From a bacterium (lineage in GTDB: Bacteria > Patescibacteriota > Minisyncoccia > Phycocordibacterales > Phycocordibacteraceae): DNA of 42,533 bases. Both the position numbers and the translations under genes were made by a program. This document shows, in pieces, positions 2,721-34,718 of this stretch. Location: contig JAJYQV010000037.1 of assembly GCA_021794425.1 (NCBI GenBank), forward strand, positions 1 through 42,533. The letters are read 5' to 3'. How positions within the stretch are numbered: position 1 is the first letter of the stretch; the number at the start of each line of letters is the position of its first letter. The notes beneath the pieces were generated by a model. That model was not told the origin of the DNA. It worked only from the letters and a program-made list of their open reading frames with translations, and did not search any database.

Positions 2721-2778
2721 AACGCCCGAACAAGCGTTTGTGCCATCGGCACGAGCGTTTGTTCGGGCGTTTTCGTTT
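2721..2778 (+). terminator. Rho-independent terminator-like hairpin
   Basis: AACGCCCGAACAA (2721-2733) pairs with TTGTTCGGGCGTT (2759-2771). There is an inner GTGCC/GGCAC stem, followed by TTTTCGTTT. Confidence 0.6.
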
Positions 2779-2799
2779 ATCCCCTTAAACCAACTAATC

Positions 2800-4140
2800 A
2801 TGAATAACAAACTCAACATCGTATACGTGCCCATTACTTCCCTCCGTCACGCGGAATACAATCCGCGCGTCATCGACGACAGCACGAAGAAACCGGTGCG
2901 CGCGAGCATCGAGAAGCACGGCGTCGCCGACCCGATCGTCGCGAACGACGCGCCCGGCCGCGAAGGAGTCATCATCGGCGGCAATCTTCGGTATGAAGTT
3001 CTGAAGGATATGGGCCACGAAGAAGTGCCCGTCGTGTACATCACCATTACCGATCTCGAGAAGGAGAAAGACCTTTGCCTCCGCTTGAACAAGGCGGTCG
3101 GCGAATGGGACTTCGACCTCCTCAAGGAGTTCGACTCGTCCTTTCTCACCGAGGTCGGCTTCGGCAGCGAGGACCTCGACGATATCTTCCCAGCCGAGGA
3201 CAACCCCGAGAAATTTGATCTGGAGAAAGAACTCGAGAAGCTTGATATCACCGAGATCAAGGTGCAGAAAGGAGATATCTACGAAATCGATGGATCGAGG
3301 ATGATGTGTGGCGACTCGACCATCGAGGCCGACATGCTCACACTCATGGGCGATGCCCGTGCGGATATGTGCTTCACCGATCCGCCGTACATCCTCGACT
3401 ATCTCCACGGCAAGAAGAAAAAGAACGGCGAGGCCGTGACCGGCTTTGGCGCGAAGCGGGACCGCCGCTATCTTGAAACCGACTCCCTGCCTGACAACTT
3501 CACCGAGCTTTGGATGAGCAATGTGTCGAAGGTCGCGAAGCCGGACTTCCACATCGTCGTGTATGAGAACTGGAAGAACATCCGCACCATCTGGGGCGAG
3601 ATGGAGAAGTATTGGAAGGTGAAGAATATGCTCGTGTGGCATCTCCCGAATCGCAATCAGGGGTACGCTGGGAAGTACAAGCTTTTCAGCAAACACGACA
3701 TCGCGATGGTCGGCTCGTCGAATGAGGATGCAGAGAAACTGAACCTCGATAGCGAAGGCGAGCTTCTCGACAACGAGTACGAAGCGGCACTCTATGCCAT
3801 TTCGGGAAAACCGCACTGGGAGGGATATGAGAAAGGCAAGAAGATCCAGCCGACCGACTTCATCGAATATAAGGCCGCTGACCTTCAGTCCTCTGGTCAG
3901 GGCATCATCTTCGGCACCAAGCCGCTTGAGATCCTTATCCCGTACGTGAAGGTGCTCACGAAGCGCGATGACCTGATTGTGGAACCCTTCGGCGGAAGCG
4001 GGTCGACGCTCATCGCCTCAGTGAAGATGCACCGCCGTTGCTATCTCATGGAGAAGAGTCCCGTGTACGCTGAAGTCATAAAACGGCGTTGGGAGATGGA
4101 GACCGGGAAGAAGGCCGTTAAGATCCATGGTGCCGCCTGA
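2800..4140 (+). CDS. ParB-like nuclease domain fused to an N6/N4 DNA methyltransferase
   Basis: N-terminus: VPITSLRHAEYNPRVIDD ... IIGGNLRY (ParB/Sulfiredoxin-like). C-terminal half: motif IV FTDPPY and motif I EPFGGSGSTLIA (beta-class order). The start was taken at MNNKL because the longer ORF start (2740) lies inside the terminator hairpin. Confidence 0.8.
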   Translation: MNNKLNIVYVPITSLRHAEYNPRVIDDSTKKPVRASIEKHGVADPIVANDAPGREGVIIGGNLRYEVLKDMGHEEVPVVYITITDLEKEKDLCLRLNKAVGEWDFDLLKEFDSSFLTEVGFGSEDLDDIFPAEDNPEKFDLEKELEKLDITEIKVQKGDIYEIDGSRMMCGDSTIEADMLTLMGDARADMCFTDPPYILDYLHGKKKKNGEAVTGFGAKRDRRYLETDSLPDNFTELWMSNVSKVAKPDFHIVVYENWKNIRTIWGEMEKYWKVKNMLVWHLPNRNQGYAGKYKLFSKHDIAMVGSSNEDAEKLNLDSEGELLDNEYEAALYAISGKPHWEGYEKGKKIQPTDFIEYKAADLQSSGQGIIFGTKPLEILIPYVKVLTKRDDLIVEPFGGSGSTLIASVKMHRRCYLMEKSPVYAEVIKRRWEMETGKKAVKIHGAA

Positions 4141-5942: not shown

Positions 5943-6294
5943 ATATTTCTGCTAGATGGTAAATCCATGTGGTACAGAAAACCCACCACATGGGTGAGGA
6001 CTTTCGCCCTCCATACCGGTTTCCCGATATGACCAGTCAAGGCAAGCCCCATATGATGGGTTTTCTAGCCTCGACTGGTTTTTTCGACCATGCCCAGAAA
6101 TTTCTCCCCGGGTTTAGGTCATTTTTATTCGTGTGTAGAACGTGTACATAATAGCTCGTTTTCAGCTATCGTTGTAGACCCTAGCTTAGTATTAGGGGTT
6201 TGCGAAGAGGGCCTGCCAACAGGCGGGGTCTCGTGTCGGTGGGATTCTCGGTATCGTCCGTCTATTTACACTGTGGATTATTTCATCCATAGTC

Positions 6295-6604: not shown

Positions 6605-8908
6605 ATGGCAGAAAATATATACAAAGTAAAAGGAATGCACTGCGCGAGCTGCGTATCCCTCATTCAGAATAAGGTTGGCAAGATTCCCGGCGTTGAAAAT
6701 GTCTCAGTCGGCCTTTCGACAGAAAAGGCAAAGGTTGTGTTCAAGGATGCACCTGTCGCGCTTAATACCTTGAATTCCGCCATCTCCCCATTCGGGTACT
6801 CGTTTGAAGATACCGGCAAGACCGCCGCTCAAATGGGCATGTCGGAGATGGATCACGCACGCATGGATCATAGCCAGAGCGGAGAGAAGAACATGGCTCT
6901 CGAAATGAAGTTCATTCTCCCGATGGTTGTATTTTCTTTCGCCATGATGCTATGGGATGTATTGAGTCAAAATGGCATCGTCCCTGCGATGCCGGAAAAT
7001 GCGTACGAAGTATCCCATCATCTCATGCCGATATTCGCTTCCTTCGTTCTCTTCGGCATTGGTCGGAGATATATCAAGGCGACGTGGGTCTTCCTTAAGA
7101 CCGGGATCGCCAATATGGATACGCTCGTCGGTATCTCGACAATCGTCGCCTTTATATACTCCTTCGCAGTTACCGCATTTGAAAAACCTCTCTCCGGCCT
7201 CTTGGATGTCAGCTCCAATTTTTATGACGTAGTAATAATCGTCATCGGCCTTATCGCATTTGGCCAGTTCCTTGAAGCCAGGGCAAAAAGAAAGACTAAC
7301 GAGGCTCTCCAGAAACTCGCCGAGCTTACCAGCAAATCCGCGCTCGTCGAACGTGACGGCAAGGAGATGGAAATCCCCATCGAAAAAGTGGAAATCGGCG
7401 ATGTGGTTATTATCAAACCGAATGAGCGCGTGCCAATCGACGGCCGCGTGGTAAATGGCAACAGCAGTATCGACGAGTCGAACCTGACCGGTGAATCGGT
7501 GCCGGTGGATAAAGCCACCGGCGACATGGTATTTGCTGGTACACAGAATTTCCAAGGACTCATCAAAATCAAGGTAGAAAAAGACAGCAAGGATACGGCT
7601 CTCGCGCATATCATAAAGATCGTTGAGAACGCACAGAACTCCAAAGCTCCTATTGAAAGAATTGCAGATAAGATATCCGGTGTATTCGTGTATGTCGTTA
7701 TCGTGCTTGCAGTCTTTACCTTCGCCTCGTGGCTCATATTCGCACCGGGCACATTCGGCCTGACCAAAGCACTTGCTCTCGCTATTTCCTCAACGATGGC
7801 GGTACTCGTCATCGCGTGCCCCTGCTCACTAGGCCTTGCTACCCCGACGGCAATCATTACCGGAGTCGGGACCGGCGCACGTCGAGGCATCCTCATCAAG
7901 AACGCCGAGAGTCTCGAGAAACTCGCAAAAGTGAATGCCATCGTATTCGACAAAACTGGTACGCTTACCGAAAACAAATTGTCGATTGAGGGAATCTTCT
8001 GCGAAGATAAGAATCACGTCTGTGATGCGGAAGACAAGGAATTCAAGCGATCCATTGCATATTCCATGACCAAATCATCGAAGCATCCGGTGTCGGAAAG
8101 TGTTGCCGTTTGGCTTCGGGACTCAAGGGCAGAAGCAGTACGAGTCGAGAAAATCGAAGAGGTGCCAGGCAAGGGCGTCACTGCTGAATTCAAGGGAGAG
8201 AAGTATTACCTCGGCTCCATCGGATACATCTCCGAAGTCCTTGCTCGAAAGCCGGAGAAGGTCAGGGAGAATTTCGATATTGGTCGCTTCGAAAGCGGGC
8301 GCGAACTGTATCTCGCTAACTCGAAACAAGTACTCTCGCTGATCAAGATCCACGATACAATCAAAGCAACGGCGTCACAGGAGGTGGCAAAGCTCAGGAA
8401 GCTCGGTTTGAAAATCGTCATGGCGACCGGCGACAACAAGAAAATCGGAGAAGCCGTAGCCAAGCAGCTCGGCATCGACGAAGTGTTTGCCGAGGTAAAG
8501 CCAGAAGACAAGCTCAGAATCGTCAAAGACTTGCAGGGCAAAGGATTGAAGGTGGCGATGATCGGTGACGGGGTGAACGACTCGCCCGCACTCGCACAGG
8601 CAGACGTCGCAATCTCAATGAGCGATGGATCGGATATCGCCATCGAAAGCTCGGATATCGTGCTTCTGAATGGCGATATTGGGAAGGTCGCGGAGGCGGT
8701 GAATCTTGCGAAGAAAACGAATCGGACGGTCTGGCAGAATCTCATCTGGTCATTCGGCTACAATTCGATTGGTATTCCGGTTGCAGCGGGAATTCTCGTA
8801 CCGTTCTGGGGCTGGACGTTGAGTCCTGCCATTGCCGGAGCGATCATGGCATTCGAAAGCGTGACGGTCGTTATGAATTCGCTTCGTCTTAAGAATGCAA
8901 AACTATAA
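6605..8908 (+). CDS. copA: Copper-translocating P1B-type ATPase
   Basis: 767 aa with HMA motif GMHCASCV, TM CPC motif (ACPCSLGLATP), DKTGTLT and GDGVNDSPAL. Confidence 0.92.
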   Translation: MAENIYKVKGMHCASCVSLIQNKVGKIPGVENVSVGLSTEKAKVVFKDAPVALNTLNSAISPFGYSFEDTGKTAAQMGMSEMDHARMDHSQSGEKNMALEMKFILPMVVFSFAMMLWDVLSQNGIVPAMPENAYEVSHHLMPIFASFVLFGIGRRYIKATWVFLKTGIANMDTLVGISTIVAFIYSFAVTAFEKPLSGLLDVSSNFYDVVIIVIGLIAFGQFLEARAKRKTNEALQKLAELTSKSALVERDGKEMEIPIEKVEIGDVVIIKPNERVPIDGRVVNGNSSIDESNLTGESVPVDKATGDMVFAGTQNFQGLIKIKVEKDSKDTALAHIIKIVENAQNSKAPIERIADKISGVFVYVVIVLAVFTFASWLIFAPGTFGLTKALALAISSTMAVLVIACPCSLGLATPTAIITGVGTGARRGILIKNAESLEKLAKVNAIVFDKTGTLTENKLSIEGIFCEDKNHVCDAEDKEFKRSIAYSMTKSSKHPVSESVAVWLRDSRAEAVRVEKIEEVPGKGVTAEFKGEKYYLGSIGYISEVLARKPEKVRENFDIGRFESGRELYLANSKQVLSLIKIHDTIKATASQEVAKLRKLGLKIVMATGDNKKIGEAVAKQLGIDEVFAEVKPEDKLRIVKDLQGKGLKVAMIGDGVNDSPALAQADVAISMSDGSDIAIESSDIVLLNGDIGKVAEAVNLAKKTNRTVWQNLIWSFGYNSIGIPVAAGILVPFWGWTLSPAIAGAIMAFESVTVVMNSLRLKNAKL

Positions 8909-8913
8909 ATCAT

Positions 8914-9813
8914 ATGTCACACAATCACGCGCACCCTTCAAATTACAACACGGCCTTTGTTATAGGCTTGGTTCTGAACATTGCCTTTGTCGCTATCGAA
9001 CTTTGGTTCGGCTACATCTCTCATTCGCTCGCCCTTACCTCAGACGCGGTGCATAACCTGACCGACGTGTTTGGCTTGCTGATCGCCTGGACGGGCATCT
9101 GGTTTGAGACCCGGACACCGAGCAAAAAGCACACGTACGGTTACGGTAGAGGATCTATTCTGACGTCGCTGTTTAATGCGATTCTGATATTCGTAGCAGC
9201 AGGAGGTATTTTTGTAGAAGCGCTCCATCGCATCAATATCCCAGCCAGTGTCATGGGGAGCACGGTTATGTGGGTTGCTGCGGTCGGTATTGTCATAAAC
9301 GGCGTCACAGCCTTCTTATTCATGAGAGGGCGTAAGAGTGATATCAACATTCGTGGCGCATTCGTGCACATGGCCGCCGATGCCGGGGTATCTCTCGGCG
9401 TGGTCTTTGCCGGTCTTGCCATCACCCTTACGGGAATTGCTTGGATTGATCCTGTGGTAAGCATCATTATCGCCGGAGTAATTATCTTCACTACATGGTC
9501 ACTCATGAAAGAGTCCCTGAACCTCTCGTTCGACGCCGTTCCAGAGTCCATCGATCTGGACCAAGTAAAAAAATATCTTGAAGGTATTACAGGTGTTGTC
9601 GCGGTACACGATTTGCATATCTGGGCGATAAGCACGAAAGAGACTGGTCTGACCGCGCATCTTATTTATGAAGACATGCCCGTTCCGGATGAAGCTTTAC
9701 TTCAGGTGGCCGATGATTTGCGCGACAAATTTCAGATCGGTCATACCACCCTGCAGACCGAGAAAGATCGGACTGGTCGTTACTGCAAATTAGAGCCAGA
9801 CACAATCATTTAA
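8914..9813 (+). CDS. Cation diffusion facilitator family transporter (CzcD/ZitB-like)
   Basis: 299 aa with multiple TM helices, the metal-site motifs SDAVHNLTD and HMAADAGVS, and a C-terminal cytoplasmic domain. Confidence 0.85.
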   Translation: MSHNHAHPSNYNTAFVIGLVLNIAFVAIELWFGYISHSLALTSDAVHNLTDVFGLLIAWTGIWFETRTPSKKHTYGYGRGSILTSLFNAILIFVAAGGIFVEALHRINIPASVMGSTVMWVAAVGIVINGVTAFLFMRGRKSDINIRGAFVHMAADAGVSLGVVFAGLAITLTGIAWIDPVVSIIIAGVIIFTTWSLMKESLNLSFDAVPESIDLDQVKKYLEGITGVVAVHDLHIWAISTKETGLTAHLIYEDMPVPDEALLQVADDLRDKFQIGHTTLQTEKDRTGRYCKLEPDTII

Positions 9814-9816
9814 TTT

Positions 9817-10830
9817 ATGAAATCACTCACATTCCACGTTTCCGGTACCCATTGCGCCGCATGCAAAATCTTCATCGAAGATATTCTGGGTGAGCAGGAT
9901 TTCATCAAGAAGTCCAACGTTGATCTCAAAAAAGAAACAGTCACCATCGAAACCGACAGCGACCAGAACCCCGAAGTGATGGCAGAGGAGCTGACAGAGA
10001 AGATCAGGAAGAACGGCTACACTCTCTCGGTAGGGAAAAAGGTAGACGAGAAAAAACAAGATGATGTCATTTGGAAAGCAATCCCAATAGGACTGGCATT
10101 TCTCATTCTTTTCTTCATCCTGCAAAAGTCCGGCATTTTGAATCTCGGCATCGGTGGCACGACGACTCCGGCCACGAGCTTCGTCATTGGACTCATCGCG
10201 TCGGCATCAAGCTGCCTTGCGGTGGTTGGCGGTCTGATCCTATCCCTCTCCGCGAAAGTGGCCCAGGATGAAAGTACCAAAACAAGCAAGAAACAATTCG
10301 TGCTCTTTCATGGCGGAAGACTGTTTGGGTTCGCTATTCTCGGTGGCGTGCTCGGCCTCGTCGGTCAGGCGATTGGTGTCAGTTTTACCTTCTCGGCGAT
10401 CCTCGGCCTCATAGCTTCGAGCGTCATGATATTACTCGGGCTTAACCTCGTAGGGGTTCTCAAGAAAAACAAAGTTGCTCTGCCGACCGGAATATTCGCC
10501 CACTTCAGAAAAGTCGAGCATTCGACCTTCGCCCCGATTTTTATCGGCATCGGCACATTCTTCCTGCCATGCGGCTTCACGCAAGCGATGCAGGTCGCTG
10601 CGCTCTCAAGCGGCTCATTCGTGTCTGGACTTCTCATCATGCTGTCGTTCGCACTCGGGACCCTTCCAATGCTTGCACTCTTGTCTTTCGGATCGGTGTC
10701 CTTTGCACATTCCAAACATGCGCCACTCTTCTTCAAATCTGCAGGCATCGTTGTGATCGGTCTCGGTATCTTCGCACTTCTTGCCGGTCTCGCGGGGCTG
10801 GGTGTCATCCGTCCTTTATTTAACATTTAA
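9817..10830 (+). CDS. HMA domain fused to a TauE/SafE- or DsbD_2-like multi-TM permease
   Basis: N-terminal SGTHCAACKIF heavy-metal-associated motif, followed by about six glycine-rich TM helices. Confidence 0.65.
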   Translation: MKSLTFHVSGTHCAACKIFIEDILGEQDFIKKSNVDLKKETVTIETDSDQNPEVMAEELTEKIRKNGYTLSVGKKVDEKKQDDVIWKAIPIGLAFLILFFILQKSGILNLGIGGTTTPATSFVIGLIASASSCLAVVGGLILSLSAKVAQDESTKTSKKQFVLFHGGRLFGFAILGGVLGLVGQAIGVSFTFSAILGLIASSVMILLGLNLVGVLKKNKVALPTGIFAHFRKVEHSTFAPIFIGIGTFFLPCGFTQAMQVAALSSGSFVSGLLIMLSFALGTLPMLALLSFGSVSFAHSKHAPLFFKSAGIVVIGLGIFALLAGLAGLGVIRPLFNI

Positions 10831-10850
10831 TCTTTTAGTAAAATTACTTT

Positions 10851-11249
10851 ATGAACAAAACCGCTTCGATCATCATCACGCTCGCTCTTGTTGCCGGTCT
10901 CGGCATTGTCTTCCTTGGAGGATCGAAGGACGGTGCTCCGACCGCTTCAACGGGAACGGCTCAGAACGTCGAAATACGGGATGGTGTTCAGTACGTCACT
11001 ATCAATGCGAAAGCTGGATACTCACCAAAAGTTTCCAGTGCGAAAGCTGGTATCCCAACGAAGCTCATTGTAAAAACTAACGGCACGTATGACTGCTCGG
11101 CTTCTCTCGTGATTCGATCCATCGGCTATCAGAAAATACTTCCTCAAACCGGAGAGGACACAATCGACATTGGTACTCCAGTGGCCGGACAACCCCTGCA
11201 GGGGGTATGCGGTATGGGGATGTATAACTTTCTCGTAAATTTTAGTTGA
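10851..11249 (+). CDS. Cupredoxin-like domain protein with N-terminal anchor
   Basis: 132 aa with an N-terminal TM segment and a beta-rich domain ending ...QGVCGMGMYNFLV (Cys/Met ligand-like). Last gene of the metal operon. Confidence 0.5.
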   Translation: MNKTASIIITLALVAGLGIVFLGGSKDGAPTASTGTAQNVEIRDGVQYVTINAKAGYSPKVSSAKAGIPTKLIVKTNGTYDCSASLVIRSIGYQKILPQTGEDTIDIGTPVAGQPLQGVCGMGMYNFLVNFS

Positions 11250-11329
11250 GGTAGCAAGAGTTTATCAACTCCTCGGGCTCGTAGGACGCTCTGGACTCCT
11301 TAGAGGGGTTGCGTCATTCCTTGTACTGT

Positions 11330-12649
11330 ATGAACACAATACAAGCGCCGGTGGGGTTTCCGGCCAAGCAAATACAAGCCCCTGTGAAGGTTAGATACTG
11401 CCTCTATGCCCGTAAGAGCACCGAGAGCGAGGAACGGCAGGTGCTCTCCATTGAGAGCCAAGTAAAGGAAATGCTCCAGCTCGCGGAACGAGAAGGACTT
11501 GAGGTAGTCGCCATGAAGCGAGAGAGCCACTCGGCTAAGGAGACCGGCCAGCGACCCATCTTCAACGAGATAATTGAAGAGATCCAGAGCGGCAAGTACA
11601 ACGGCATCCTCACCTGGGCGGCAGACCGCATCAGCCGAAATGCGGGCGACCTGGGTCGCGTCGTCGATCTCATGGATGCAGGACACTTGCAAGAGATTCG
11701 GACATTCAGCCAAGGCTTCAGGAATAACCCGAACGAGAAGTTCCTCCTGACGATTCTCGGCGGGCAAGCCAAGCTTGAGAACGACAATCGAGGCATCAAT
11801 GTGAAGCGCGGACTACGAACACGCGTCGAGATGGGTCTGTGGCCGACCACACCGCCGACTGGGTACATTACCCAACACGACATGCTAAAGAAGTGTCAGG
11901 TCATCATCGACCCCGAGCGCGGCGAGATAGTGAAGAAGATGTTCGAGAAGATGGCGTACGAGAAATGGAGCGGACGGCGCATCCACCACTGGCTCAAGTT
12001 CGACCTAAACTTCAAGACGGTCGGCAAGAAAAACCTCGCACTCTCAAACATCTTCCGCACCCTCCAGAACCCCTTCTACTACGGCGTCTTCGAGTATCCG
12101 AAGAAAAGCGGCAACTGGTATCAGGGCAAGCACGAGCCGCTTATCTCGAAGGAACTGTTCGACCAAGTACAGCTTCAAATGAAGCGCGACAACATCGTGC
12201 GGCAGGGGCACGAGTTCGCCTTCACCAAGCTGATGACCTGCGGTAAGTGTGGATCAGGCATAAGCGCGGAAGAGAAGTACAAGCCCCTCAAGGACGGCAC
12301 GACTAAGCGTTACATCTACTACGGATGCGGACGCTCGAAGAACAAGACGTGTCACGCCAAGTATCTGCAGGAGGAGGCACTAGTAGAGCAGCTGATTTCG
12401 CTCCTTGATCAGATTGACTTCAATACACTTGGCATCGAGCAGAAGTTCGAGGACGAGCTAAAGCGCTTCAACAAGTTCCAGCGCGGAGTGCTGGGTATCG
12501 CAAATAAAGGCGCGACTCACGCCGATATTGACCTCAAGACCTACGCGAAGTACACGCTCAAGGAAGGCACGAATGAGGAGCGACGGGAACTGATGGGGTG
12601 CTTTAAGTCGAAGCTCAAGATTACGGAAGGGATCGTGACCATCGAATAG
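11330..12649 (+). CDS. Large serine recombinase (resolvase/invertase N-domain + recombinase domain + zinc ribbon)
   Basis: YARKSTESEERQVLSIESQ contains the catalytic Ser context. A recombinase domain follows, with a CGKCGS...CGRSKNKTC Cys cluster. The start was taken at the ATG; the ORF track extends to a TTG at 11309. Confidence 0.85.
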   Translation: MNTIQAPVGFPAKQIQAPVKVRYCLYARKSTESEERQVLSIESQVKEMLQLAEREGLEVVAMKRESHSAKETGQRPIFNEIIEEIQSGKYNGILTWAADRISRNAGDLGRVVDLMDAGHLQEIRTFSQGFRNNPNEKFLLTILGGQAKLENDNRGINVKRGLRTRVEMGLWPTTPPTGYITQHDMLKKCQVIIDPERGEIVKKMFEKMAYEKWSGRRIHHWLKFDLNFKTVGKKNLALSNIFRTLQNPFYYGVFEYPKKSGNWYQGKHEPLISKELFDQVQLQMKRDNIVRQGHEFAFTKLMTCGKCGSGISAEEKYKPLKDGTTKRYIYYGCGRSKNKTCHAKYLQEEALVEQLISLLDQIDFNTLGIEQKFEDELKRFNKFQRGVLGIANKGATHADIDLKTYAKYTLKEGTNEERRELMGCFKSKLKITEGIVTIE

Positions 12650-12661
12650 TAGATCGAAAAT

Positions 12662-12698
12662 TCAAATCCCGTCGCGGTTTAACCGCGACGGGATTTGA
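12662..12698. terminator. Bidirectional hairpin between the recombinase gene and tRNA-Ser
   Basis: TCAAATCCCGTCGCGG / CCGCGACGGGATTTGA form a 16-nt perfect inverted repeat with a 5-nt loop. Confidence 0.55.
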
Positions 12699-12747
12699 GC
12701 AACTTTAAACAAGGCTCTCGGGTCACACCGATACTAAAGTCTTCGGG

Positions 12748-12834
12748 CGGAGGCGGAGAGATTCGAACTCTCGAGACCCTTTCGAGCCTGCCGCCTTTCC
12801 AAGGCGGTGGAATAAACCGCTATCCGACGCCTCC
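12748..12834 (-). tRNA. tRNA-Ser(GGA)
   Basis: Hand-folded. Acceptor GGAGGCG/CGCCTCC, anticodon loop TTGGAAA, long variable arm, T-loop GTTCGAATC, discriminator G. CCA is not encoded. Confidence 0.85.
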
Positions 12835-12956
12835 AAGCGTACTGTCCTGTTATAGCAGAAAAACGCTCGGTTTTCACGCCTTCGTGCCGAGGAGCGCGGC
12901 GACGTGGGCTTTGACCGTCGGCCGCACTTTCGCTCGAAGACTCGCTCAGCGCTGCA

Positions 12957-14607: not shown

Positions 14608-15168
14608 TTAAAACTGCACTTTCACCGGCTCTTTGGCCGCGGCGTCGGCGTCGGCGAGCTCGAAGAGGTCCATCTGCGAGAAGCCGAACTGGCCCGAAAT
14701 CAGGTTGTTCGGGAACGTCTGAATGGCCGTGTTGAATGCCATGACGGTCGTGTTGTAGAAACGGCGGGCGGCCTGGATCTTGTCCTCGGTGTCGCCGAGC
14801 TCGCGCTGGAGCTGGAGGAAGTTCTGGTTCGCCTTCAGGTCCGGATACGCTTCGGACACCGCGAAGAGCGACTTGAGGGTGCCCTCGAGCATGTTCTCGG
14901 CCTTTGCCTTGTCGGCGGTGCCCGTCGCGCCCATGGCAGCCGTGCGCGCGGCCGTCACGTCTTCAAAGACGGTCTTCTCGTGTGCGGCGTAGCCCTTCAC
15001 CGTCTCGACGAGGTTCGGGATGAGGTCGTAGCGGCGCTTGAGCTGCACGTCGATATCGGCCCACGCCTCCTTGGCGCGGTTCCGCAGGGTCACGAGGCCG
15101 TTGTAGGCGAAAATGAGCCAGAGCACGATAATAGCTAGCACTATAAGTACGGTGGTGGTTGTGGTCAT
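14608..15168 (-). CDS. lemA: LemA family protein
   Basis: N-terminal TM segment, then YNGLVTLRNRAKEAWADIDVQLKRRYDLIPNLVETVKGYA. The start was trimmed to MTTTTTV. Confidence 0.85.
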   Translation of the reverse strand: MTTTTTVLIVLAIIVLWLIFAYNGLVTLRNRAKEAWADIDVQLKRRYDLIPNLVETVKGYAAHEKTVFEDVTAARTAAMGATGTADKAKAENMLEGTLKSLFAVSEAYPDLKANQNFLQLQRELGDTEDKIQAARRFYNTTVMAFNTAIQTFPNNLISGQFGFSQMDLFELADADAAAKEPVKVQF

Positions 15169-15190
15169 ATGCCTCCAGTATACTACGGCT

Positions 15191-17644
15191 ATGCAATCTG
15201 GCGACCCCATCGAGAAGCACTTCCCGCGGATGAAGAGCGGCCAGAAGAAGGCGCTCGGGAAGCTCGGGATACGCACGCTCCGCGACCTCCTCTACCACTT
15301 CCCTGCCCGCTACGAGAACGCGGGCCCGACCGGCACGATCACGAGCGTGACCCCCGGCGCCGAGGTCACGCTCTTCGGCACAGTGAGGAAGCCCGACGTG
15401 CGCAAAGCTTGGAAGAGCCGCAAGCCGCTCGCCGAGGCGTGGCTCGAAGACAACTCCGGCAAGATAAAGATGATGTGGTTCTCCCAGCCCTACATCGCAA
15501 AAACGCTCCACGACGGCATGCACGTGCGCGTGACGGGGCGCATCGCGGGCGAGGGCGCAAAAGCATACCTCGCGAATCCGAAAATCGAGAAAAGTGCGAT
15601 CGAGCCCGGCAACCTCCATAATTCCCTCTTCGCCCGTACCGAGGATTTAAATGTTAAACATTTAAATCCGGAGGATGTGCGCGAGTCGCTCTTCAACACC
15701 CAAGTAGTTAGGACATCCGATGTCCTAACTTCTGAAGAAGGGCATCCGATGTTCACGGACGCGGCGCTGCACAGCGTGTATCCCGAGAGCAAGGGCGTCT
15801 CCTCGCTCTGGATCACCCACGCGGTGAAGAAGCTGTTTGAAGCGGGCGTGCACGAGAGGATCGAGGACCCGATTCCGGGCGACATCCTCGCGCGCTACAA
15901 GCTGCCCTCGCTCGCGAGTGCGCTCGTCTTCATACACGCGCCGCGCAAAAAGAGCGACGCGGACGCCGCGCGCAAACGCTTCGCGTTCGAGGAGATCTTT
16001 GCGCTCCAGGTGGTGATGCAGATGCGCCGGCGCGCGCACCTCGCCGAAGAGGCTCTCCCCGTCACCGTCGACCGGAAAGCACTCCAGGATTTCATCGCCT
16101 CGTACCCGTTCCCTGCCACCGACGCGCAGCTCTCCGCGATCGATTCGATCGTCTCCGACTTCGAGCAGCGTCACCCGATGCTCCGACTCCTCGAGGGCGA
16201 TGTGGGCTCGGGCAAGACCGCCGTTGCCGCCGCGACGGCATATCTGGTAGTTACTTCACTCCCTCCCAAAGTTCTCGAACGTGACAAAAAGCTTCCAGAT
16301 GCAAGGCGCGGGCAGGCGATTTCTGGAGGCGTACTGAAGGGTACGACGGAAGAAATCGACGGGGCCCGCAACGCAGCAGCTGGAGCTTTTGGGCATGTTC
16401 GAGGAGGGTACCTCCAGGTCGCATACTTGGTCCCGACCGAAATACTCGCCAAGCAGCACTTCTCGACCTTCGTCTCCTATTTCAAAGACCACCCGATCCC
16501 GATCGGCCTCATCACCGGCAATGAGTGCCGCGTCTTCCCGTCAAAGATCCGCTACGAAGAGTCCGCAAAGATCTCAAAGGCGGCGTTCAAGAAACGCGTC
16601 GCCGAGGGCACCATCCCCATCGTCATCGGCACCCACGCACTCGTCGAGAAGACGCTCACGTTCAAATACTTCGCGTACGCCATCATCGACGAGCAGCACC
16701 GGTTCGGCACGATGCACCGCCAGAAGCTCGCGACCAAGGGCGCGGTTGCACCCCAAGAGTACTTCCATTTTACTAACGCGGATGACCGCGAAGTAAAATG
16801 GGGCGCGCCGCACCTCCTCTCTATGACCGCGACGCCGATTCCCCGCACGCTCGCGCTCACCCTCTACGGCGACCTCGACCTCACGCTCCTCGACCAGATG
16901 CCCTCGGGGCGCAAACCCATCAAGACGGAAGTCCTCGGCCCCGAGAAGCGCGAGGAAGCGTATGCGCGCGTACGTGCCGAGCTCGTCGCGGGTCGCCAAG
17001 CCTACGTCATCTGCCCGCGCATCGACGAGCCCGATCCGACCAAAGAGCTCGCGCTCCAGGCGAAGTCGGTAGTCGCCGAGGCGGCACGTCTGAAAAAAGA
17101 GGTCTTTCCGCATGCGACCATCGGCATCCTCCACAGCAAGATGCGCCCTGCAGAAAAAGAAGAGGCGATGCAGAAATTCGAGAAGGGCGAGACGCAGATC
17201 CTCGTGGCCACTTCGGTGGTCGAGGTGGGCGTGAATGTGCCCAACGCGACGGTCATACTCATCGAGGGCGCCGAGCGCTTCGGGCTCGCCCAGCTCCACC
17301 AGCTGCGCGGCCGCGTCATCCGTTCAAATCACCAGGCGTACTGCTTTGCGCTCCCCGAGTCGTTCGGGCAAGCGACCAAAGACCGCATGAAAGCGTTCAC
17401 GCAGGCGAAGAACGGATTCGAGCTCGCCGAGTACGACCTCGGCCTGCGCGGCGCGGGCGAGCTCACCGGCGGCCGGCAGTGGGGCGTCTCCGACATCGCG
17501 ATGGAAGCCCTGAAGAACCTCAAGCTCGTCGAGGCCGCGCGCACCGAGGCAGCGAAACTGGTCGCAGTTGACCCCGACCTGCGCGCCCATCCGACGCTCG
17601 CGCTGCGCGCTCGCGCCGCCGACGCCGAGATGCACCTGGAATAA
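15191..17644 (+). CDS. recG: ATP-dependent DNA helicase RecG, unusually long because of in-frame insertions
   Basis: Wedge-domain N-terminus, GDVGSGKT, PTEILAKQH, DEQHRFG, MTATPIPRTL and QLHQLRGRVIR. The start was trimmed to MQSGDPIEKHF. Confidence 0.9.
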   Translation: MQSGDPIEKHFPRMKSGQKKALGKLGIRTLRDLLYHFPARYENAGPTGTITSVTPGAEVTLFGTVRKPDVRKAWKSRKPLAEAWLEDNSGKIKMMWFSQPYIAKTLHDGMHVRVTGRIAGEGAKAYLANPKIEKSAIEPGNLHNSLFARTEDLNVKHLNPEDVRESLFNTQVVRTSDVLTSEEGHPMFTDAALHSVYPESKGVSSLWITHAVKKLFEAGVHERIEDPIPGDILARYKLPSLASALVFIHAPRKKSDADAARKRFAFEEIFALQVVMQMRRRAHLAEEALPVTVDRKALQDFIASYPFPATDAQLSAIDSIVSDFEQRHPMLRLLEGDVGSGKTAVAAATAYLVVTSLPPKVLERDKKLPDARRGQAISGGVLKGTTEEIDGARNAAAGAFGHVRGGYLQVAYLVPTEILAKQHFSTFVSYFKDHPIPIGLITGNECRVFPSKIRYEESAKISKAAFKKRVAEGTIPIVIGTHALVEKTLTFKYFAYAIIDEQHRFGTMHRQKLATKGAVAPQEYFHFTNADDREVKWGAPHLLSMTATPIPRTLALTLYGDLDLTLLDQMPSGRKPIKTEVLGPEKREEAYARVRAELVAGRQAYVICPRIDEPDPTKELALQAKSVVAEAARLKKEVFPHATIGILHSKMRPAEKEEAMQKFEKGETQILVATSVVEVGVNVPNATVILIEGAERFGLAQLHQLRGRVIRSNHQAYCFALPESFGQATKDRMKAFTQAKNGFELAEYDLGLRGAGELTGGRQWGVSDIAMEALKNLKLVEAARTEAAKLVAVDPDLRAHPTLALRARAADAEMHLE
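15643..15669. repeat. AT-rich palindrome inside the recG coding sequence
   Basis: GGATTTAAATGTT-A-AACATTTAAATCC, with 13-nt perfect arms. Confidence 0.9.
15706..15730. repeat. Palindrome inside the recG coding sequence
   Basis: AGTTAGGACATC-C-GATGTCCTAACT, with 12-nt perfect arms. Confidence 0.9.
16261..16408. repeat. ~150-nt imperfect nested inverted repeat inside recG, between helicase motifs I and Ia
   Basis: The outer arms share CCCTCC, TCGAAC and AAAAGCT..CCAG (16261-16298 vs 16380-16408). Inner perfect pairs are CGATTTCT/AGAAATCG (16317-24/16351-58) and CGTAC/GTACG (16330-34/16341-45). Confidence 0.7.
16765..16801. repeat. 37-nt hairpin element inside recG
   Basis: CCATTTTACT-AA-CGCGG-ATGA-CCGCG-A-AGTAAAATGG. 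Confidence 0.85.
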
Positions 17645-17731: not shown

Positions 17732-17807
17732 TGGTGGGCGTGCCTGGACTCGAACCAGGAACCGCAGAGGTATAAGCTCTGTGCTCTAACCATTGAGCTA
17801 CACGCCC
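17732..17807 (-). tRNA. tRNA-Ile(UAU), CCA encoded
   Basis: GGGCGTG TA GCTC AATGGTTA GAGC A CAGAG CTTATAC CTCTG CGGTT CCTGG TTCGAGT CCAGG CACGCCC A CCA. Confidence 0.85.
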
Positions 17808-20988: not shown

Positions 20989-21394
20989 GGGGGTGACCGG
21001 CTTTGACGGTCTGTCCTTTGAAAGACGTGCGACGCCGTGCATGCTCACCCACCACGTAAATCTGCGTGAGCAACGAAACTTGCCAAGAACACTCTTGCAA
21101 GCGTGGAGTCTCCGTACTTCGGTATGAAGGACTTCGCGTTCGCTCCCGCCTTCGCCTAACCGCGCCAGGCCGGACGACGTCTGTACCCTTGAGTTCCCTC
21201 AGTTGAGGATACAGGCGGAGTAATCTGAAGGATCGCTTACTCGCCTCCCGCCGAGAATAGCTAAATAAGGGATCGGGCAGGAATGGTTTCGTCGACGTTC
21301 CGCGCATCCTGCCTCAGACTCTAACGCCGACTACGCGTCGTAGACTCTCTTTCATAGCCAGATTCGGACGGGAGTTCAACTCTCCCCACCTCCA
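20989..21394 (+). ncRNA. ssrA: tmRNA (SsrA)
   Basis: The 5' end GGGGGTGACCGGCTTTGACGG and the 3' end GGACGGGAGTTCAACTCTCCCCACCTCCA form a tRNA-Ala-like acceptor with a G3:U70 pair. An internal reading frame ends ...FAFAPAFA-TAA. Confidence 0.85.
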
Positions 21395-21402
21395 CTCGAT
21401 TC

Positions 21403-27005: not shown

Positions 27006-27039
27006 GATGCGCCTATCATACCGCACTGACGGGCCACAA

Positions 27040-27078
27040 GCGGAAGACGCGCGCCGCGCAGCGGCGCGCGTCTTCCGC
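27040..27078 (-). terminator. Long GC-rich hairpin after the ABC-F gene
   Basis: GCGGAAGACGCGCGCCGC-gca-GCGGCGCGCGTCTTCCGC, with 18-nt perfect arms. The right arm touches the ABC-F stop codon. Confidence 0.6.
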
Positions 27079-28610
27079 TATCTCTCCAGATCGAGCACGT
27101 CGTCGATGCGGATCTGCTCGACGAAGTCGGGGACGTGGCTGACGAGGATCATCGCGCCCTCGTACTGGTCGAGCGCCTTCGCTATGACCGGCAGGTGGCG
27201 GAAGTTGATGTGGTTGGTCGGCTCGTCGAGGATGAGGAGTCCCGGCTGCTCGAGCACGAGCGAGGCGAAGGCAACGAGCCCCTTCTGCCCTTCCGAGAGG
27301 CTGCCTATCTTCGTGTATATGGTGTCGCCCGTGATGAGGAAGCTCGCGGCGACACGACGCAGGCGCTGTTCATCCGGCTGGCCCATGACCGCCTGGAGCG
27401 CGTCAAAGACGGTCGCATCGAAATCGAGCGTCGAGAAGTCCTGGCGGTAGTAGCCCACCTTCACACCCTCGGTGATGGTCGCGCCCTCGGCCGCACCCTT
27501 CGCGATGGCTTCGAGGAGCGTACTCTTGCCGATGCCGTTGGGGCCTTTCAGGAGCAGGTGATTGTTCTTGCGCAATTCGATGTTTGCCTTCTTCACCACG
27601 AGCTTGCCCTTCGTCCCGAGCACCGAGTAGCTCGTGAGCGCGAAGACGACGCCGGAGAGGTCCTCTTGCGCGGGAATGGTGAACGGCCGGATGGTCTTGT
27701 CTTCTTTGCGCACGTCGACTTTCGCCTCCTCCATCTCTTCGGCCTCGGTGCGCATCTTCTTGGCCACGAGGCGCATCTTGCCGCCCTTCTGCGCGAAGAA
27801 GTTCGCCTTGTCCTTGTTCTCCTGAATCTTCTTGGCGAGCTGCGCGTTCTTCCTATTCTCCTTCTCGATGCGGATGAGGATTTCGCGCTGCACGTCGTGA
27901 TAGTTGCCGGGGTACTGCTCGATCTTCCTCGTGAAGACGTCGAGATAAAGCACGCCGGTGGTAAAGGCGTTCAGGAAGTCTGCATCATGCGAAATGACGA
28001 CCACGGTCTTGTCATAGTCGACGAGAAACTTGGTGAGATGCTCAATGCCGGCCTTGTCGAGATTGTTCGTCGGCTCGTCGAGCAAGAGCAGGTCCGGGTC
28101 CTGAATGAGGGCCGACGCCAAGAGGAGCCGCGCCTGCTGCCCGCCCGAGAAGCTCTTCACGATGCGATCATGCAGCTTTTCATGGTGCTTGAGGTTGACC
28201 ACCTCAAGCACTTTATCGATACGCGGGTCAATGTCATAGACTGCGTGGCCCGCCGAAGCTTCAGCGTAGGAGGCGAAGAAGTCGCGCACGGTGAGCTCCA
28301 TCTTCTCGCGCGGGATCACCTGCGAGGCGAGCGCGACCTTCATGCCGTGCGCGCGGTTGATATCGCCGTCGGTCACTGCGCGCTCGCCCGTCATGAGCGA
28401 GAAGAGCGTCGACTTGCCCGCGCCGTTCTGCCCCATGACCGCCATCTTCATGCCGCGGCGCAGCGTGAAAGAAGCCTCGTCGAGGATCGGCTTGTTGTGC
28501 GACCAATTTCTCTTGCCCGTACTCGGGCTTAGAGAAATGGAAGTGTCCGTATGGACCCCGTATTCGAACGAAACCTCGTCGAAATTGATAATGCTCTCAT
28601 CCCGTGCCAT
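27078..28610 (-). CDS. ABC-F family ATPase (two ABC cassettes, no TM domain)
   Basis: GQNGAGKST / LSGGQQARLLLA / LLLDEPTNNLD in the first cassette; GPNGIGKST / LSEGQKGLVAFA / LILDEPTNHI in the second. Confidence 0.9.
   Translation of the reverse strand: MARDESIINFDEVSFEYGVHTDTSISLSPSTGKRNWSHNKPILDEASFTLRRGMKMAVMGQNGAGKSTLFSLMTGERAVTDGDINRAHGMKVALASQVIPREKMELTVRDFFASYAEASAGHAVYDIDPRIDKVLEVVNLKHHEKLHDRIVKSFSGGQQARLLLASALIQDPDLLLLDEPTNNLDKAGIEHLTKFLVDYDKTVVVISHDADFLNAFTTGVLYLDVFTRKIEQYPGNYHDVQREILIRIEKENRKNAQLAKKIQENKDKANFFAQKGGKMRLVAKKMRTEAEEMEEAKVDVRKEDKTIRPFTIPAQEDLSGVVFALTSYSVLGTKGKLVVKKANIELRKNNHLLLKGPNGIGKSTLLEAIAKGAAEGATITEGVKVGYYRQDFSTLDFDATVFDALQAVMGQPDEQRLRRVAASFLITGDTIYTKIGSLSEGQKGLVAFASLVLEQPGLLILDEPTNHINFRHLPVIAKALDQYEGAMILVSHVPDFVEQIRIDDVLDLER
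28503..28540. repeat. 38-nt hairpin element inside the ABC-F coding sequence
   Basis: CCAATTTCTCTTGCCCG-tact-CGGGCTTAGAGAAATGG has an AT-rich outer stem and a GCCCG/CGGGC inner stem. It encodes part of an extra ...ISLSPSTGKRNW... segment upstream of the first Walker A. Confidence 0.75.
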
Positions 28611-29385: not shown

Positions 29386-29440
29386 GGTTTGCCATAGCAG
29401 AAAACGGCCTACAATAAGCCCCTTTCTGCTATGGCAAACC
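29386..29440. repeat. 18-nt perfect inverted repeat in a divergent intergenic region
   Basis: GGTTTGCCATAGCAGAAA (29386-29403) and TTTCTGCTATGGCAAACC (29423-29440), with a 19-nt spacer. Confidence 0.9.
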
Positions 29441-30354: not shown

Positions 30355-30394
30355 GGAAACGCGCGGCGGGCCCTCGGGCCCGCCGCGCGTTTCC
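30355..30394 (+). terminator. Long GC-rich hairpin, putative terminator
   Basis: GGAAACGCGCGGCGGGCCC-tcg-GGCCCGCCGCGCGTTTCC. The downstream U-tract is weak. Confidence 0.5.
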
Positions 30395-34704: not shown

Positions 34705-34718
34705 ATTCTACCCCGCCC

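What the first reader, a model, noticed from the sequence alone, without database searches (positions are those of the whole stretch)
16261..16408. ~150-nt nested imperfect hairpin inserted in frame between RecG helicase motifs I and Ia
Between GDVGSGKT and PTEILA, RecG proteins normally have about 20 residues. Here there are about 50 extra (TSLPPKVLERDKKLPDARRGQAISGGVLKGTTEEIDGARNAAAGAFGHVRGG).

The DNA encoding them folds into a long imperfect inverted repeat. The outer arms are 16261-16298 and 16380-16408. The inner perfect pairs are CGATTTCT/AGAAATCG and CGTAC/GTACG.

An insertion at the heart of the ATPase domain that keeps the frame open suggests one of three things: a tolerated palindromic mobile element, an intervening sequence removed at the RNA level, or an intein-free protein insertion.
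Basis: partly seen in the sequence, partly recalled or inferred. Interest (0 to 1): 0.7.

Follow-up and report, generated by a model that had tools for sequence, protein, structure and literature searches.

The report
Mobile hairpin element inside recG gene
A roughly 130-base hairpin-forming piece of selfish DNA sits in frame inside the RecG helicase gene of a tiny groundwater-type (Patescibacteria) bacterium and adds about 43 amino acids to a loop; related copies sit in other essential genes and between genes, much like the "coding palindromes" known from Rickettsia.

Summary
Window 16261-16408 is a long imperfect hairpin (RNA MFE z = -4.1) inside recG, between motif I and motif Ia. It replaces 7 residues found in 117 of 120 close orthologues with 49-50 residues.

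It is one copy of a dispersed palindromic element family of about 130-138 nt in Paceibacteria/Kaiserbacteria-like Patescibacteria. I found related copies:
- in frame at a second recG site;
- in frame in cysS;
- in frame but reversed in fmt;
- in intergenic spacers (rpsB-tsf, atpE-atpF, downstream of nrdB, upstream of prfA).

The hairpin is kept by compensatory changes: 22 of 39 pairs change on both sides, and 0 of 500 shuffles reach this. In the insert, synonymous sites are 4-7 times less diverged than in the rest of recG, while the peptide is less conserved. The constraint is therefore on the nucleic acid, not the protein.

The three recG alleles with the insert are not sister lineages, and they share a synonymous flank tract. 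This points to lateral spread into the same site.

Best reading: a tolerated, translated, Rickettsia-RPE-like selfish palindrome. This is a new family in a new phylum, and how it moves is unknown. Removal at the RNA level is not excluded but has no support.

The parts
15113..17644 (+). recG ORF. The database gene call starts at the inner Met, 15191. All RecG domains and helicase motifs are intact, and this gene hosts the element.
   Evidence: ORF list. Pfam RecG_wedge, DEAD, Helicase_C and RecG_dom3_C. 1GM5 match with E = 1.4e-109. 7326 homologues, the best of them Patescibacteria/Paceibacteria RecG.
16205..16219 (+). Helicase motif I (Walker A, GSGKT), upstream of the insertion.
   Evidence: Translation and alignment.
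16238..16264 (+). Upstream flank tract GCA TAT CTG GTA GTT ACT TCA CTC CCT. All three insert-bearing alleles share its synonymous codon choices (and A->V), and all insert-free alleles lack them. It is probably DNA co-transferred with the element.
   Evidence: Codon alignment of six recG genes. Third-position identity in the 15 upstream codons is 53-57% with filled alleles against 21-29% with empty ones, although the window is overall closest to an empty allele.
16270..16407 (+). The palindromic element as delimited by covariance model R1 (138 nt). The full hairpin, with its outermost 6-bp stem, spans 16261-16408. The net insertion relative to empty alleles is 129 nt.
   Evidence: CM match of 142.5 bits, E = 1e-39. 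Fold. Empty-site comparison.
16274..16298 (+). 5' arm of the basal/outer stem. Its sequence varies between copies but stays complementary to 16380-16403.
   Evidence: In helices 1-2, 13 of 17 pairs change on both sides.
16380..16403 (+). 3' arm of the basal/outer stem.
16303..16372 (+). Conserved apical core: AGGCGCGGG..CGATTTCT..CGTAC-loop-GTACG..AGAAATCG..CCCGCAAC. It is nearly identical in copies from different genomes and sites. In the cysS copy its inner stem is replaced by a different, still complementary sequence.
   Evidence: Invariant columns. cysS copy GCAACTC/GAGTTGC and CGTAT/ATACG. In helix 4, 8 of 10 pairs change on both sides.
16262..16411 (+). In-frame translation of the insert: 50 codons, PPKVLERDKK...HVRGGY.
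16433..16450 (+). Helicase motif Ia (PTEILA), downstream of the insertion.

Best explanation
The hairpin is one copy of a small, non-autonomous palindromic (selfish) DNA element family of Paceibacteria-type Patescibacteria. It is about 130-138 nt long. It has a conserved apical core and a basal stem whose sequence drifts while its pairing is kept.

This copy landed in frame in recG, in the loop between the Walker A helix and the strand that carries motif Ia. It is most likely transcribed and translated with the gene, adding a poorly constrained surface loop of about 43 extra residues to an otherwise intact RecG.

Shown:
- membership of a dispersed family;
- in-frame copies in other genes and in the opposite orientation;
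- intergenic copies;
- conservation of the structure by compensatory change;
- constraint at the nucleotide level rather than the peptide level;
- sporadic, non-monophyletic presence at the same recG site, with a shared flank tract.

Inferred:
- the insert is translated and tolerated because it sits in a distal loop;
- the element moves or is recognised as a folded single strand, the 'DARRG'-sense strand;
- the recG allele spread between lineages by homologous recombination or by site-specific re-insertion.

The enzyme that mobilises it is unknown.
For: 1. The hairpin is real and far beyond chance.

2. Only 3 of 120 close RecG orthologues carry the insert at this site. P0013 carries a related element at a different recG site, between motifs II and III.

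3. DNA-pattern and HMM searches found further copies:
- in frame in cysS of a Ca. Kaiserbacteria MAG, where query residues 232-279 face 9 residues of a solved CysRS;
- in frame but reverse-oriented in fmt;
- intergenic in rpsB-tsf, atpE-atpF, downstream of nrdB, and upstream of prfA and of a membrane-protein gene;
- as 40-105-aa orphan 'ORFs'.
Two contigs hold two copies each (L004, L007).

4. On 10 copies, 92.6% of cells are paired and 22 of 39 pairs change on both sides (0 of 500 shuffles reach this). Slid controls give 35-46% paired.

5. Insert versus the rest of recG, three pairs of alleles:
- amino-acid identity 73.5% against 78%;
- nucleotide identity 85% against 75%;
- dS 0.21-0.27 against 1.06-1.56;
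- dN/dS 0.34-0.68 against 0.09-0.16.

6. Intergenic copies have a 1-nt shorter loop that breaks the 'DARRG' frame, so what is conserved is the DNA and not the peptide.

7. The forward strand folds better than its complement in 9 of 9 copies. G.T outnumbers A.C by 34 to 8 cells.

8. In an NJ tree of 120 RecG proteins the three insert-bearing proteins never cluster (0 of 100 bootstraps). P0001 pairs with insert-free P0002 (100 of 100). Filled alleles share a 27-nt synonymous flank tract.

9. The same insert is present in three independent assemblies, so it is not an assembly artefact.
Against: - Copy number is low. Model R1 finds no second copy in the 42.5-kb window or in 22 kb of L001 and L013. 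A strict core pattern hit only 4 contigs among 185,579 species genomes and 2 metagenome contigs. This is not a high-copy repeat like RPEs.
- There are no conserved terminal inverted repeats. No consistent target-site duplication or target motif was seen.
- No transposase is associated with it. The window has only a large serine recombinase 4 kb away.
- Translation of the insert is not demonstrated.
- Both AlphaFold models were too poor to place the loop (pLDDT 49 and 59).
- The low dS could partly reflect recent lateral transfer rather than structural constraint.
- The alignment used for pair counting was fitted to the structure.
Confidence: 0.75

Rival explanations
1. The hairpin is a functional structured RNA, or a single-stranded DNA signal, that the host uses. 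Examples would be an RNA processing or stability element, a protein-binding hairpin, or a small RNA gene. Under this view it has been recruited in several places and is kept by selection for that function rather than by selfish spread.
For: - Strong covariation with a highly conserved apical core.
- Strand asymmetry of folding.
- Several intergenic copies lie inside operons: rpsB-tsf, atpE-atpF and a pilus operon.
- Synonymous sites in the recG copy are 4-7 times less diverged than in the rest of the gene.
Against: - Copies lie in both orientations relative to host transcription (forward in recG, cysS and L008; reverse in fmt, rpsB-tsf, atpE-atpF, nrdB and prfA). No single mRNA-level role fits all of them.
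- There is no promoter-like or terminator-like signal in or next to the window copy.
- There is no Rfam family match.
- 117 of 120 orthologous recG genes do without it.
- This reading is not exclusive of a mobile origin.
Confidence: 0.12
2. The insert is an intervening sequence that never reaches the protein. The long hairpin would be excised from the mRNA and the ends rejoined, or the ribosome would bypass it as in T4 gene 60 or mitochondrial byp elements.
For: - It is a compact, stable hairpin that brings the two flanks together. Pairing even extends into the flanks (ATCTGG 16242-16247 / CCAGGT 16414-16419), with a compensatory change in L001.
- The peptide is poorly conserved.
Against: - All independent coding insertions (recG site 1, recG site 2, cysS, fmt) are multiples of three with no stop codon, while intergenic copies carry frame-breaking indels.
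- There is no in-frame stop or take-off/landing codon pair as bypassing needs (sequence).
- There is no intron or ribozyme match in Rfam.
- No bacterial mRNA hairpin-excision and ligation pathway is established (background knowledge).
- Caveat: there is an ascertainment bias toward in-frame copies, and most frames of the element are open anyway.
Confidence: 0.04
3. The insert is an ordinary lineage-specific protein loop or domain, selected for a protein function in RecG. Its hairpin potential would be incidental.
For: The frame is kept, and the insert has persisted through the divergence of P0003 and P0004, which are 86% identical.
Against: - The same DNA occurs in unrelated genes, in the reverse frame (fmt) and in non-coding DNA.
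- The nucleotide sequence is more conserved than the peptide, with dN/dS 3-6 times that of the rest of the gene.
- The hairpin is kept by compensatory changes.
- The host-gene phylogeny is discordant with presence of the insert.
Confidence: 0.05
4. The insert is an assembly or chimera artefact of a metagenome contig.
For: The window is evidently a metagenome-assembled contig.
Against: The same insert at the same codon is found in three independent assemblies from different sources (the window's ENA contig, NCBI GCA_028866135.1 and ENA ERZ27245777). They differ by 12-15% at the nucleotide level.
Confidence: 0.01

Closest known systems
Rickettsia palindromic elements (RPE-1 to RPE-10; Ogata et al. 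2000, as summarised in PMC10969869 and PMC3767692)
   Same: - They are 100-150-bp palindromic elements.
- They are found both between genes and inserted in frame in unrelated housekeeping genes without destroying the ORF.
- Each element encodes a conserved peptide in one frame.
- Orthologues can carry the insert at the same locus.
- The hosts are small-genome, host-dependent bacteria.
- The mobilising mechanism is unknown.
   Different: - The host phylum is different (Patescibacteria), and no sequence relation was tested or is expected.
- Copy number here is low: 0-2 copies per 2-42 kb of held DNA, against tens to hundreds per Rickettsia genome.
- Here the apical core is conserved while the basal stem covaries.
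- Presence at the recG site is phylogenetically patchy, with a shared flank tract, which suggests lateral spread into one site.
Bacterial MITEs (for example Correia/NEMIS, ERIC, Nezha, BOX)
   Same: They are small, non-autonomous, inverted-repeat elements. They are often transcribed as hairpins and occasionally give in-frame fusions (PMC10969869).
   Different: MITEs are defined by conserved terminal inverted repeats matching a parent IS, and by target-site duplications. Here the termini are the most variable part, no consistent duplication was seen, and no parent IS was found.
REP/BIME elements with RAYT transposases; IS200/IS605 ends; integron attC sites (single-strand hairpin substrates)
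   Same: In these, structure rather than sequence is conserved, and the folded single strand of one particular strand is the active form. The covariation and the forward-strand folding bias fit that logic.
   Different: - REPs are 20-40 nt and extragenic.
- attC sites conserve their ends and vary their centre, which is the opposite of this element.
- No Y1 transposase, RAYT or integron integrase is present in the window. The association was not tested genome-wide.
Translational bypass elements (T4 gene 60 gap; mitochondrial byp elements of Magnusiomyces)
   Same: They are short structured inserts inside essential coding sequences that do not inactivate the gene.
   Different: Those are not translated, and they need a stop codon plus matched take-off and landing codons. 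This insert is an open, in-frame multiple of three with no stop codon.

Membership tests
RPE-like 'coding palindromes' (as a functional kind) | A palindromic element of about 100-150 bp able to fold into a long hairpin. | tested here: met
   130-138 nt; MFE z = -4.09; all 10 copies fold alike.
RPE-like 'coding palindromes' (as a functional kind) | Copies inserted in frame in unrelated protein-coding genes without breaking the ORF, plus copies in intergenic DNA. | tested here: met
   recG site 1, recG site 2, cysS and fmt (reverse orientation); intergenic in rpsB-tsf, atpE-atpF, nrdB 3' and prfA 5'.
RPE-like 'coding palindromes' (as a functional kind) | Many dispersed copies per genome. | tested here: inconclusive
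   One copy in the 42.5-kb window and none in two further 22-kb loci. Two copies each on L004 (2.3 kb) and L007. No complete genome could be scanned.
Rickettsia RPE families proper (RPE-1...RPE-10) | Sequence similarity to an RPE consensus; a Rickettsia or Wolbachia host. | not tested
   No RPE consensus sequences were at hand. The host is Patescibacteria according to the RecG hits, so membership is not claimed.
MITE | Conserved terminal inverted repeats shared with a parent IS. | tested here: not met
   The termini are the least conserved part of the element. No IS with matching ends was found in the held DNA. The IS110 gene near the L012 cysS has no element copy at its ends.
MITE | A target-site duplication of fixed length. 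| tested here: inconclusive
   There is a possible 8-9-bp direct repeat GCNCCCGC at the L002 site. No consistent duplication was seen at the other nine sites.
REP/BIME-RAYT | 20-40-nt palindromes, extragenic, with a RAYT (Y1 transposase) gene in the genome. | tested here: not met
   The element is 130+ nt and intragenic. No Y1_Tnp domain was found among 21 window proteins scanned. The genome-wide presence of a RAYT gene could not be tested.
Intein | At least about 130 aa, with an N-terminal Cys/Ser/Thr, a C-terminal His-Asn, and a Cys/Ser/Thr at the +1 position. | tested here: not met
   The insert is 49-50 aa. It starts PPK and ends RGGY, followed by L. Pfam finds no intein or Hint domain.
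Group I / group II intron or other known self-processing RNA | A match to the ribozyme covariance models. | tested here: not met
   Rfam at gathering threshold finds nothing here. The permissive search returns only chance hits, with E at least 0.07 and scores far below gathering.
Programmed translational bypass (gene 60 type) | A stop codon after the take-off codon and a matching landing codon. | tested here: not met
   There is no stop codon in frame anywhere in the insert.
Integron attC | Conserved R''/R' ends with a variable centre; an adjacent integrase and cassette array. | tested here: not met
   The pattern is the opposite (conserved centre, variable ends) and there is no integrase.

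The most novel reading that the evidence does not exclude
The element is a new kind of structure-dependent mobile hairpin. It would be recognised as a folded single strand (DNA or RNA) through its conserved apical core. It would re-invade the same codon of recG in unrelated lineages, a 'homing'-like behaviour without an encoded endonuclease. It may prefer targets resembling GCS-ACC..AAR-GGY..ATY-GCS, which recG sites 1 and 2 share. Alternatively, it is removed from the mRNA by an unknown hairpin-excision route.

Either way it would reveal an undescribed mobility or processing mechanism in the minimal genomes of Patescibacteria. It would also explain why their essential proteins carry so many small palindromic inserts.
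Probability: 0.15. Interest if true: 0.8.

Novelty: new variant of a known kind. Interest (0 to 1): 0.55.

Why it matters
In-frame 'coding palindromes' have essentially been a curiosity of Rickettsia and Wolbachia. Finding an unrelated family with the same behaviour in Patescibacteria suggests that tolerance of selfish hairpins inside essential genes recurs in reduced genomes. Patescibacteria are another lineage of tiny, host-dependent cells.

The finding has practical and mechanistic consequences:
- It affects annotation. Orphan 40-100-aa 'genes' and odd insertions in housekeeping proteins of candidate-phyla MAGs may be such elements.
- It offers a natural experiment on which helicase loops tolerate 40-50 extra residues.
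- The strong covariation, strand bias and patchy same-site distribution give a concrete handle for finding the still unknown machinery that moves such elements.

Tried and rejected
- Word-indexed protein search with the 4-peptide alignment returned nothing, not even the window's own protein, so that index is unsuitable for 50-aa queries. The exhaustive HMMER search was used instead.
- Scan of viral contigs for the core pattern: 0 hits.
- Both AlphaFold2 runs were too poor to say where the loop sits. The 14-sequence alignment gave pLDDT 49.4 and the 120-sequence alignment gave 59.1; the insert itself scored about 25-38, but so did much of RecA domain 1. No fold search was made.
- I considered that the 57-nt mini-hairpin at recG site 2 (16753-16812) is a deletion derivative of the main element. 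Local alignment scores are within the shuffle range, so this is rejected.
- Test for a replication-strand bias using local GC skew: 8 of 10 loci (6 of 8 independent sites) are negative. This is not significant and is confounded by gene strand.
- Search for a common target motif or duplication at the junctions of 10 copies: none is evident.
- Inverted repeat 11930-12060, inside the serine recombinase gene, does not fold beyond chance (z = -0.04).
- Attempts to extend beyond the window through terminal ORFs failed because the ORF starts differ from the recorded gene calls. P0130 and P0022 had no retrievable DNA.
- Open-frame statistics: most of the six frames of the element are open in most copies. 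Frame openness alone therefore cannot separate 'translated' from 'removed'.
- IS110 transposase next to the L012 cysS: no element copy at its ends, so it is treated as coincidental.
Full report
**1. The observation**

It is a nested, imperfect inverted repeat with these arms:
- outermost arms CCCTCC 16261-16266 / GGAGGG 16403-16408;
- outer arms 16274-16298 / 16380-16403;
- inner pairs GCGCGGGC 16306-16313 / GCCCGC 16364-16369;
- CGATTTCT 16317-16324 / AGAAATCG 16351-16358;
- CGTAC 16330-16334 / GTACG 16341-16345.

As RNA, the 181-nt stretch around it folds at -75.8 kcal/mol. Two hundred dinucleotide shuffles give -58.9 +/- 4.1 (z = -4.09), and none folds as well.

The region lies in frame in an 843-codon ORF (15113-17644). 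That ORF is a complete RecG:
- it carries the wedge, DEAD, Helicase_C and RecG_dom3_C domains;
- it matches T. maritima RecG 1GM5 at E = 1.4e-109.

In the 1GM5 alignment, query residues 373-434 face chain residues 407-418, so about 50 residues are extra.

**2. The organism and the normal state of the gene**

The best RecG hits are from Patescibacteria MAGs variously named Paceibacterota, Minisyncoccota, Parcubacteria or Kaiserbacteria.

Across the 120 closest orthologues, 117 have seven residues at this position (consensus KGRIAGT). Only three have 44-49 residues in the aligned segment: the window's own protein P0001, P0003 and P0004. At the DNA level, all three replace the seven residues with 49-50, a net gain of 43 codons or 129 nt.

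**3. It is one copy of a dispersed element family**

- A fourth RecG (P0013) carries a recognisably related stretch at a different place, between motif II (DEQH) and motif III (SMTAT). Its peptide is ...DARRGKSVSRGVRGGTTRETDGARNAADEDF....
- A core DNA pattern found further copies in species-representative genomes and in metagenome contigs.
- An exhaustive HMMER search with the peptide profile against 1.84 billion representative proteins gave 13 hits. Most are 41-105-aa orphan 'proteins', meaning the element translated where it lies between genes. One hit is a cysteinyl-tRNA synthetase.

Reading the contexts gives the following:
- In frame in cysS of a Candidatus Kaiserbacteria MAG (OGG73089.1). 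About 47 residues face 9 residues of a solved CysRS.
- In frame in fmt but in the opposite orientation, so a different peptide is made. Similarity to solved Fmt stops at the element.
- Between rpsB and tsf, where it supplies the last codons and the stop of rpsB.
- Between atpE and atpF.
- Between convergent nrdB and pilin genes.
- Upstream of prfA and of a membrane-protein gene.
- Inside a pilus operon.

Contigs L004 (2.3 kb) and L007 each hold two copies. A covariance model built from nine copies (R1) finds no second copy in the 42.5-kb window, or in L001 and L013. Copy number is therefore low.

**4. What is conserved is the folded nucleic acid, not the peptide**

All copies fold into the same long hairpin. 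The apical roughly 70 nt is almost invariant between genomes. The basal stem differs in sequence from copy to copy, even between the two copies on L004, but stays complementary.

The divergent cysS copy replaces the inner stem CGATTTCT/AGAAATCG with GCAACTC/GAGTTGC, and CGTAC/GTACG with CGTAT/ATACG.

On the model-based alignment of ten copies:
- 92.6% of cells are standard pairs;
- 22 of 39 pairs show changes on both sides;
- the covariation score is 0.40, against 0.16 +/- 0.02 in shuffles (0 of 500 reach it);
- sliding the partners by 1-3 columns gives 35-46% pairing.

The caveat is that this alignment was fitted to the structure. The independent MAFFT alignment already gave 14 compensated pairs.

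Intergenic copies have a loop 1 nt shorter, which breaks the 'DARRG' reading frame.

For the three recG alleles that share the insert:

| Measure | Insert | Rest of recG |
|---|---|---|
| Amino-acid identity | 73.5% | 78% |
| Nucleotide identity | 85% | 75% |
| dS | 0.21-0.27 | 1.06-1.56 |
| dN | 0.09-0.14 | 0.10-0.17 |
| dN/dS | 0.34-0.68 | 0.09-0.16 |

The identity rows are for the window against L001. The dS, dN and dN/dS rows span all three pairs.

The sense ('DARRG') strand folds more stably than its complement in 9 of 9 copies, whichever way the host gene runs. On that strand, G.T pairs outnumber A.C mismatches by 34 to 8 cells, or 17 to 8 columns. This is suggestive of folding as a single strand of fixed polarity, but it is not decisive.

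**5. Patchy distribution at the same site**

In a neighbour-joining analysis of 719 well-aligned columns:
- P0001 pairs with insert-free P0002 (88.9% identity; 100 of 100 bootstraps);
- the nearest relative of P0003 is insert-free P0047 (90.5%);
- the nearest relative of P0004 is insert-free P0067 (89%);
- the three insert-bearers never form a clade (0 of 100).

The empty alleles all keep the conserved KGRIAGT, which the filled alleles lack. Many precise losses are therefore implausible.

The three filled alleles also share a 27-nt upstream tract of synonymous, AT-richer codon choices (GCA TAT NTG GTR GTT ACT TCN CTM CCT, window 16238-16264) that no empty allele has. They likewise share a TTR leucine codon downstream.

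The simplest reading is that the element plus a short flank moved between lineages by homologous recombination. The alternative is repeated site-specific insertion.

The native sequences of recG sites 1 and 2 resemble each other (A-T-(SLP)-K-G-x-I-A). This hints at a target preference, but no common motif or duplication is visible at the other sites.

**6. Why it is probably tolerated**

Both recG insertion sites are loops that run from a helix into the next beta strand of RecA-like domain 1: after the Walker A helix, and after the motif II helix. In the RecA/Rossmann-type fold these loops lie on the edge of the sheet opposite the nucleotide-binding edge. This is inference from the fold topology and the 1GM5 alignment.

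All helicase motifs are intact, and the rest of the gene is under strong purifying selection (dN/dS about 0.1).

Two AlphaFold2 attempts gave low-confidence models (pLDDT 49 and 59). The insert was modelled as coil with pLDDT 24-38. Structural placement remains unverified.

**7. Alternatives**

- Rfam has no family here, and only chance-level hits appear in a permissive search. There are no promoter-like or terminator-like signals in or beside the element.
- An intein is excluded by size and by the lack of intein motifs.
- Ribosomal bypassing would need a stop codon, and there is none.
- Removal at the RNA level cannot be excluded without transcripts. All independent coding copies keep the frame, but most frames of the element are open anyway, and in-frame copies are easier to find.
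- A host-beneficial RNA role is possible for some intergenic copies. It is hard to reconcile with the use of both orientations.

**8. Comparison with what is known**

The closest analogue is the Rickettsia palindromic element. RPEs are 100-150 bp, palindromic, frequent, and inserted in frame in unrelated genes without destroying them, with orthologues sharing the insert (PMC10969869, PMC3767692).

This element behaves the same way but differs in several respects:
- it is in another phylum;
- it has a low copy number;
- it has a conserved core with a covarying basal stem;
- it shows a homing-like patchy distribution.

It fails the defining MITE features (conserved terminal repeats matching a parent IS) and the REP/RAYT features. 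Full-text searches found no description of such elements in Patescibacteria or the Candidate Phyla Radiation.

I therefore file it as a new variant of a known kind, not as an RPE.

**9. Wider pattern in the same gene**

The window's recG has three more in-frame hairpin mini-insertions:
- 15643-15669;
- 15703-15754;
- about 16753-16812.

Relatives carry other palindromes in the same loops. For example, L013 carries a 23-bp-arm perfect palindrome, and the motif VRTSDVLTSE.GHPM occurs in ten or more orthologues.

The L013 copy of the site-2 mini-insert differs from the window's by a compensatory change (TTTTACT/AGTAAAA against TTTTTCT/AGAAAAA). It is flanked by a 10-bp direct repeat, TCGCACCACA.

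Palindrome invasion of surface loops thus seems to be a general habit of these genomes.

Noticed in passing
window 15643-15669: A perfect 13-bp-arm palindrome, GGATTTAAATGTT-A-AACATTTAAATCC, lies in frame in recG and encodes EDLNVKHLNPE. It is AT-rich in a GC-rich gene. The same peptide motif occurs in P0005 and P0081. It is unique in the window.
   Followed up: partly
window 15703-15754: Two copies of a GGACATCCGATGTCC-like palindrome lie in frame in recG and encode VVRTSDVLTSEEGHPM. The motif VRTSDV..GHPM recurs in at least 10 of 120 RecG orthologues, in the same variable loop after HNSLF. That loop ranges from 12 to 48 residues.
   Followed up: partly
window 16753-16812 (hairpin core 16768-16800): A 57-nt in-frame hairpin insert lies between recG motifs II and III and encodes QEYFHFTNADDREVKWG. 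P0068/L013 has the same insert with a compensatory stem change and a flanking 10-bp direct repeat, TCGCACCACA. It has no significant similarity to the main element.
   Followed up: yes
L013 recG, codons after SLF (locus gene 10001-12280): A perfect 23-bp-arm palindrome, GTAAAGAGGTCAAACCTCTTTAC-CAA-GTAAAGAGGTTTGACCTCTTTAC, lies in frame (SKEVKPLYQVKRFDLFT). It sits in the same RecG loop that holds other palindromes in other lineages.
   Followed up: no
window 30222-30345 and 30355-30394: Two extremely stable intergenic hairpins: 20-bp perfect arms 84 nt apart, then 19-bp perfect arms. Together they fold at -136.6 kcal/mol (z = -8.5). They lie between a nitroreductase gene and a pseudouridine-synthase-like gene. 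This may be another palindromic element family.
   Followed up: partly
window 2721-2771, 12662-12698, 27039-27079, 29386-29440: Further long, near-perfect hairpins with 18-26-nt arms and 1-3-nt loops, mostly at gene ends. They are probably terminators or more palindromic elements.
   Followed up: no
window 5996-6120 (-), 38999-39115 (+), 20989-21397 (+): Rfam matches above the gathering scores: LOOT RNA, DUF3800-V RNA and tmRNA.
   Followed up: no
window 17732-17807 (-): A tRNA-Ile with anticodon TAT (UAU) lies directly downstream of recG. ARAGORN did not report the tmRNA that Rfam found.
   Followed up: no
window 6605-12835: A probable integrated island: heavy-metal P-type ATPase, cation-efflux (CDF) protein, HMA-DsbD protein, then a large serine recombinase (11309-12649) abutting tRNA-Ser (12745-12835).
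   Followed up: no
window 33393-42469 and 2740-4140: A defence-type gene cluster: Mrr restriction endonuclease, a 927-aa ResIII helicase, Shedu SduA and an N6/N4 DNA methylase. Elsewhere there is a ParB_N-methylase fusion.
   Followed up: no
L012 9999-11066: An IS110-family transposase gene lies 350 bp downstream of the cysS gene that carries an element copy. No element copy is found at its ends.
   Followed up: partly
recG site 1 versus site 2 (window about 16250-16270 and about 16730-16755; empty alleles in L010 and L011): The native sequences at the two recG insertion sites resemble each other (GCS ACC..AAR GGY..ATY GCS; A-T-(SLP)-K-G-x-I-A). In both filled alleles the upstream Ala-Thr became Val-Thr (GTK ACT). 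This may reflect a target preference or ectopic recombination.
   Followed up: partly
RecG relatives P0022, P0042, P0080 (site 1): A short extra PPKGP(L/I)RGE lies at the very site of the large insert. It starts with the same PPK as the filled alleles. It may be a footprint or another mini-palindrome. No DNA could be retrieved for P0022, and the other two were not looked up.
   Followed up: no
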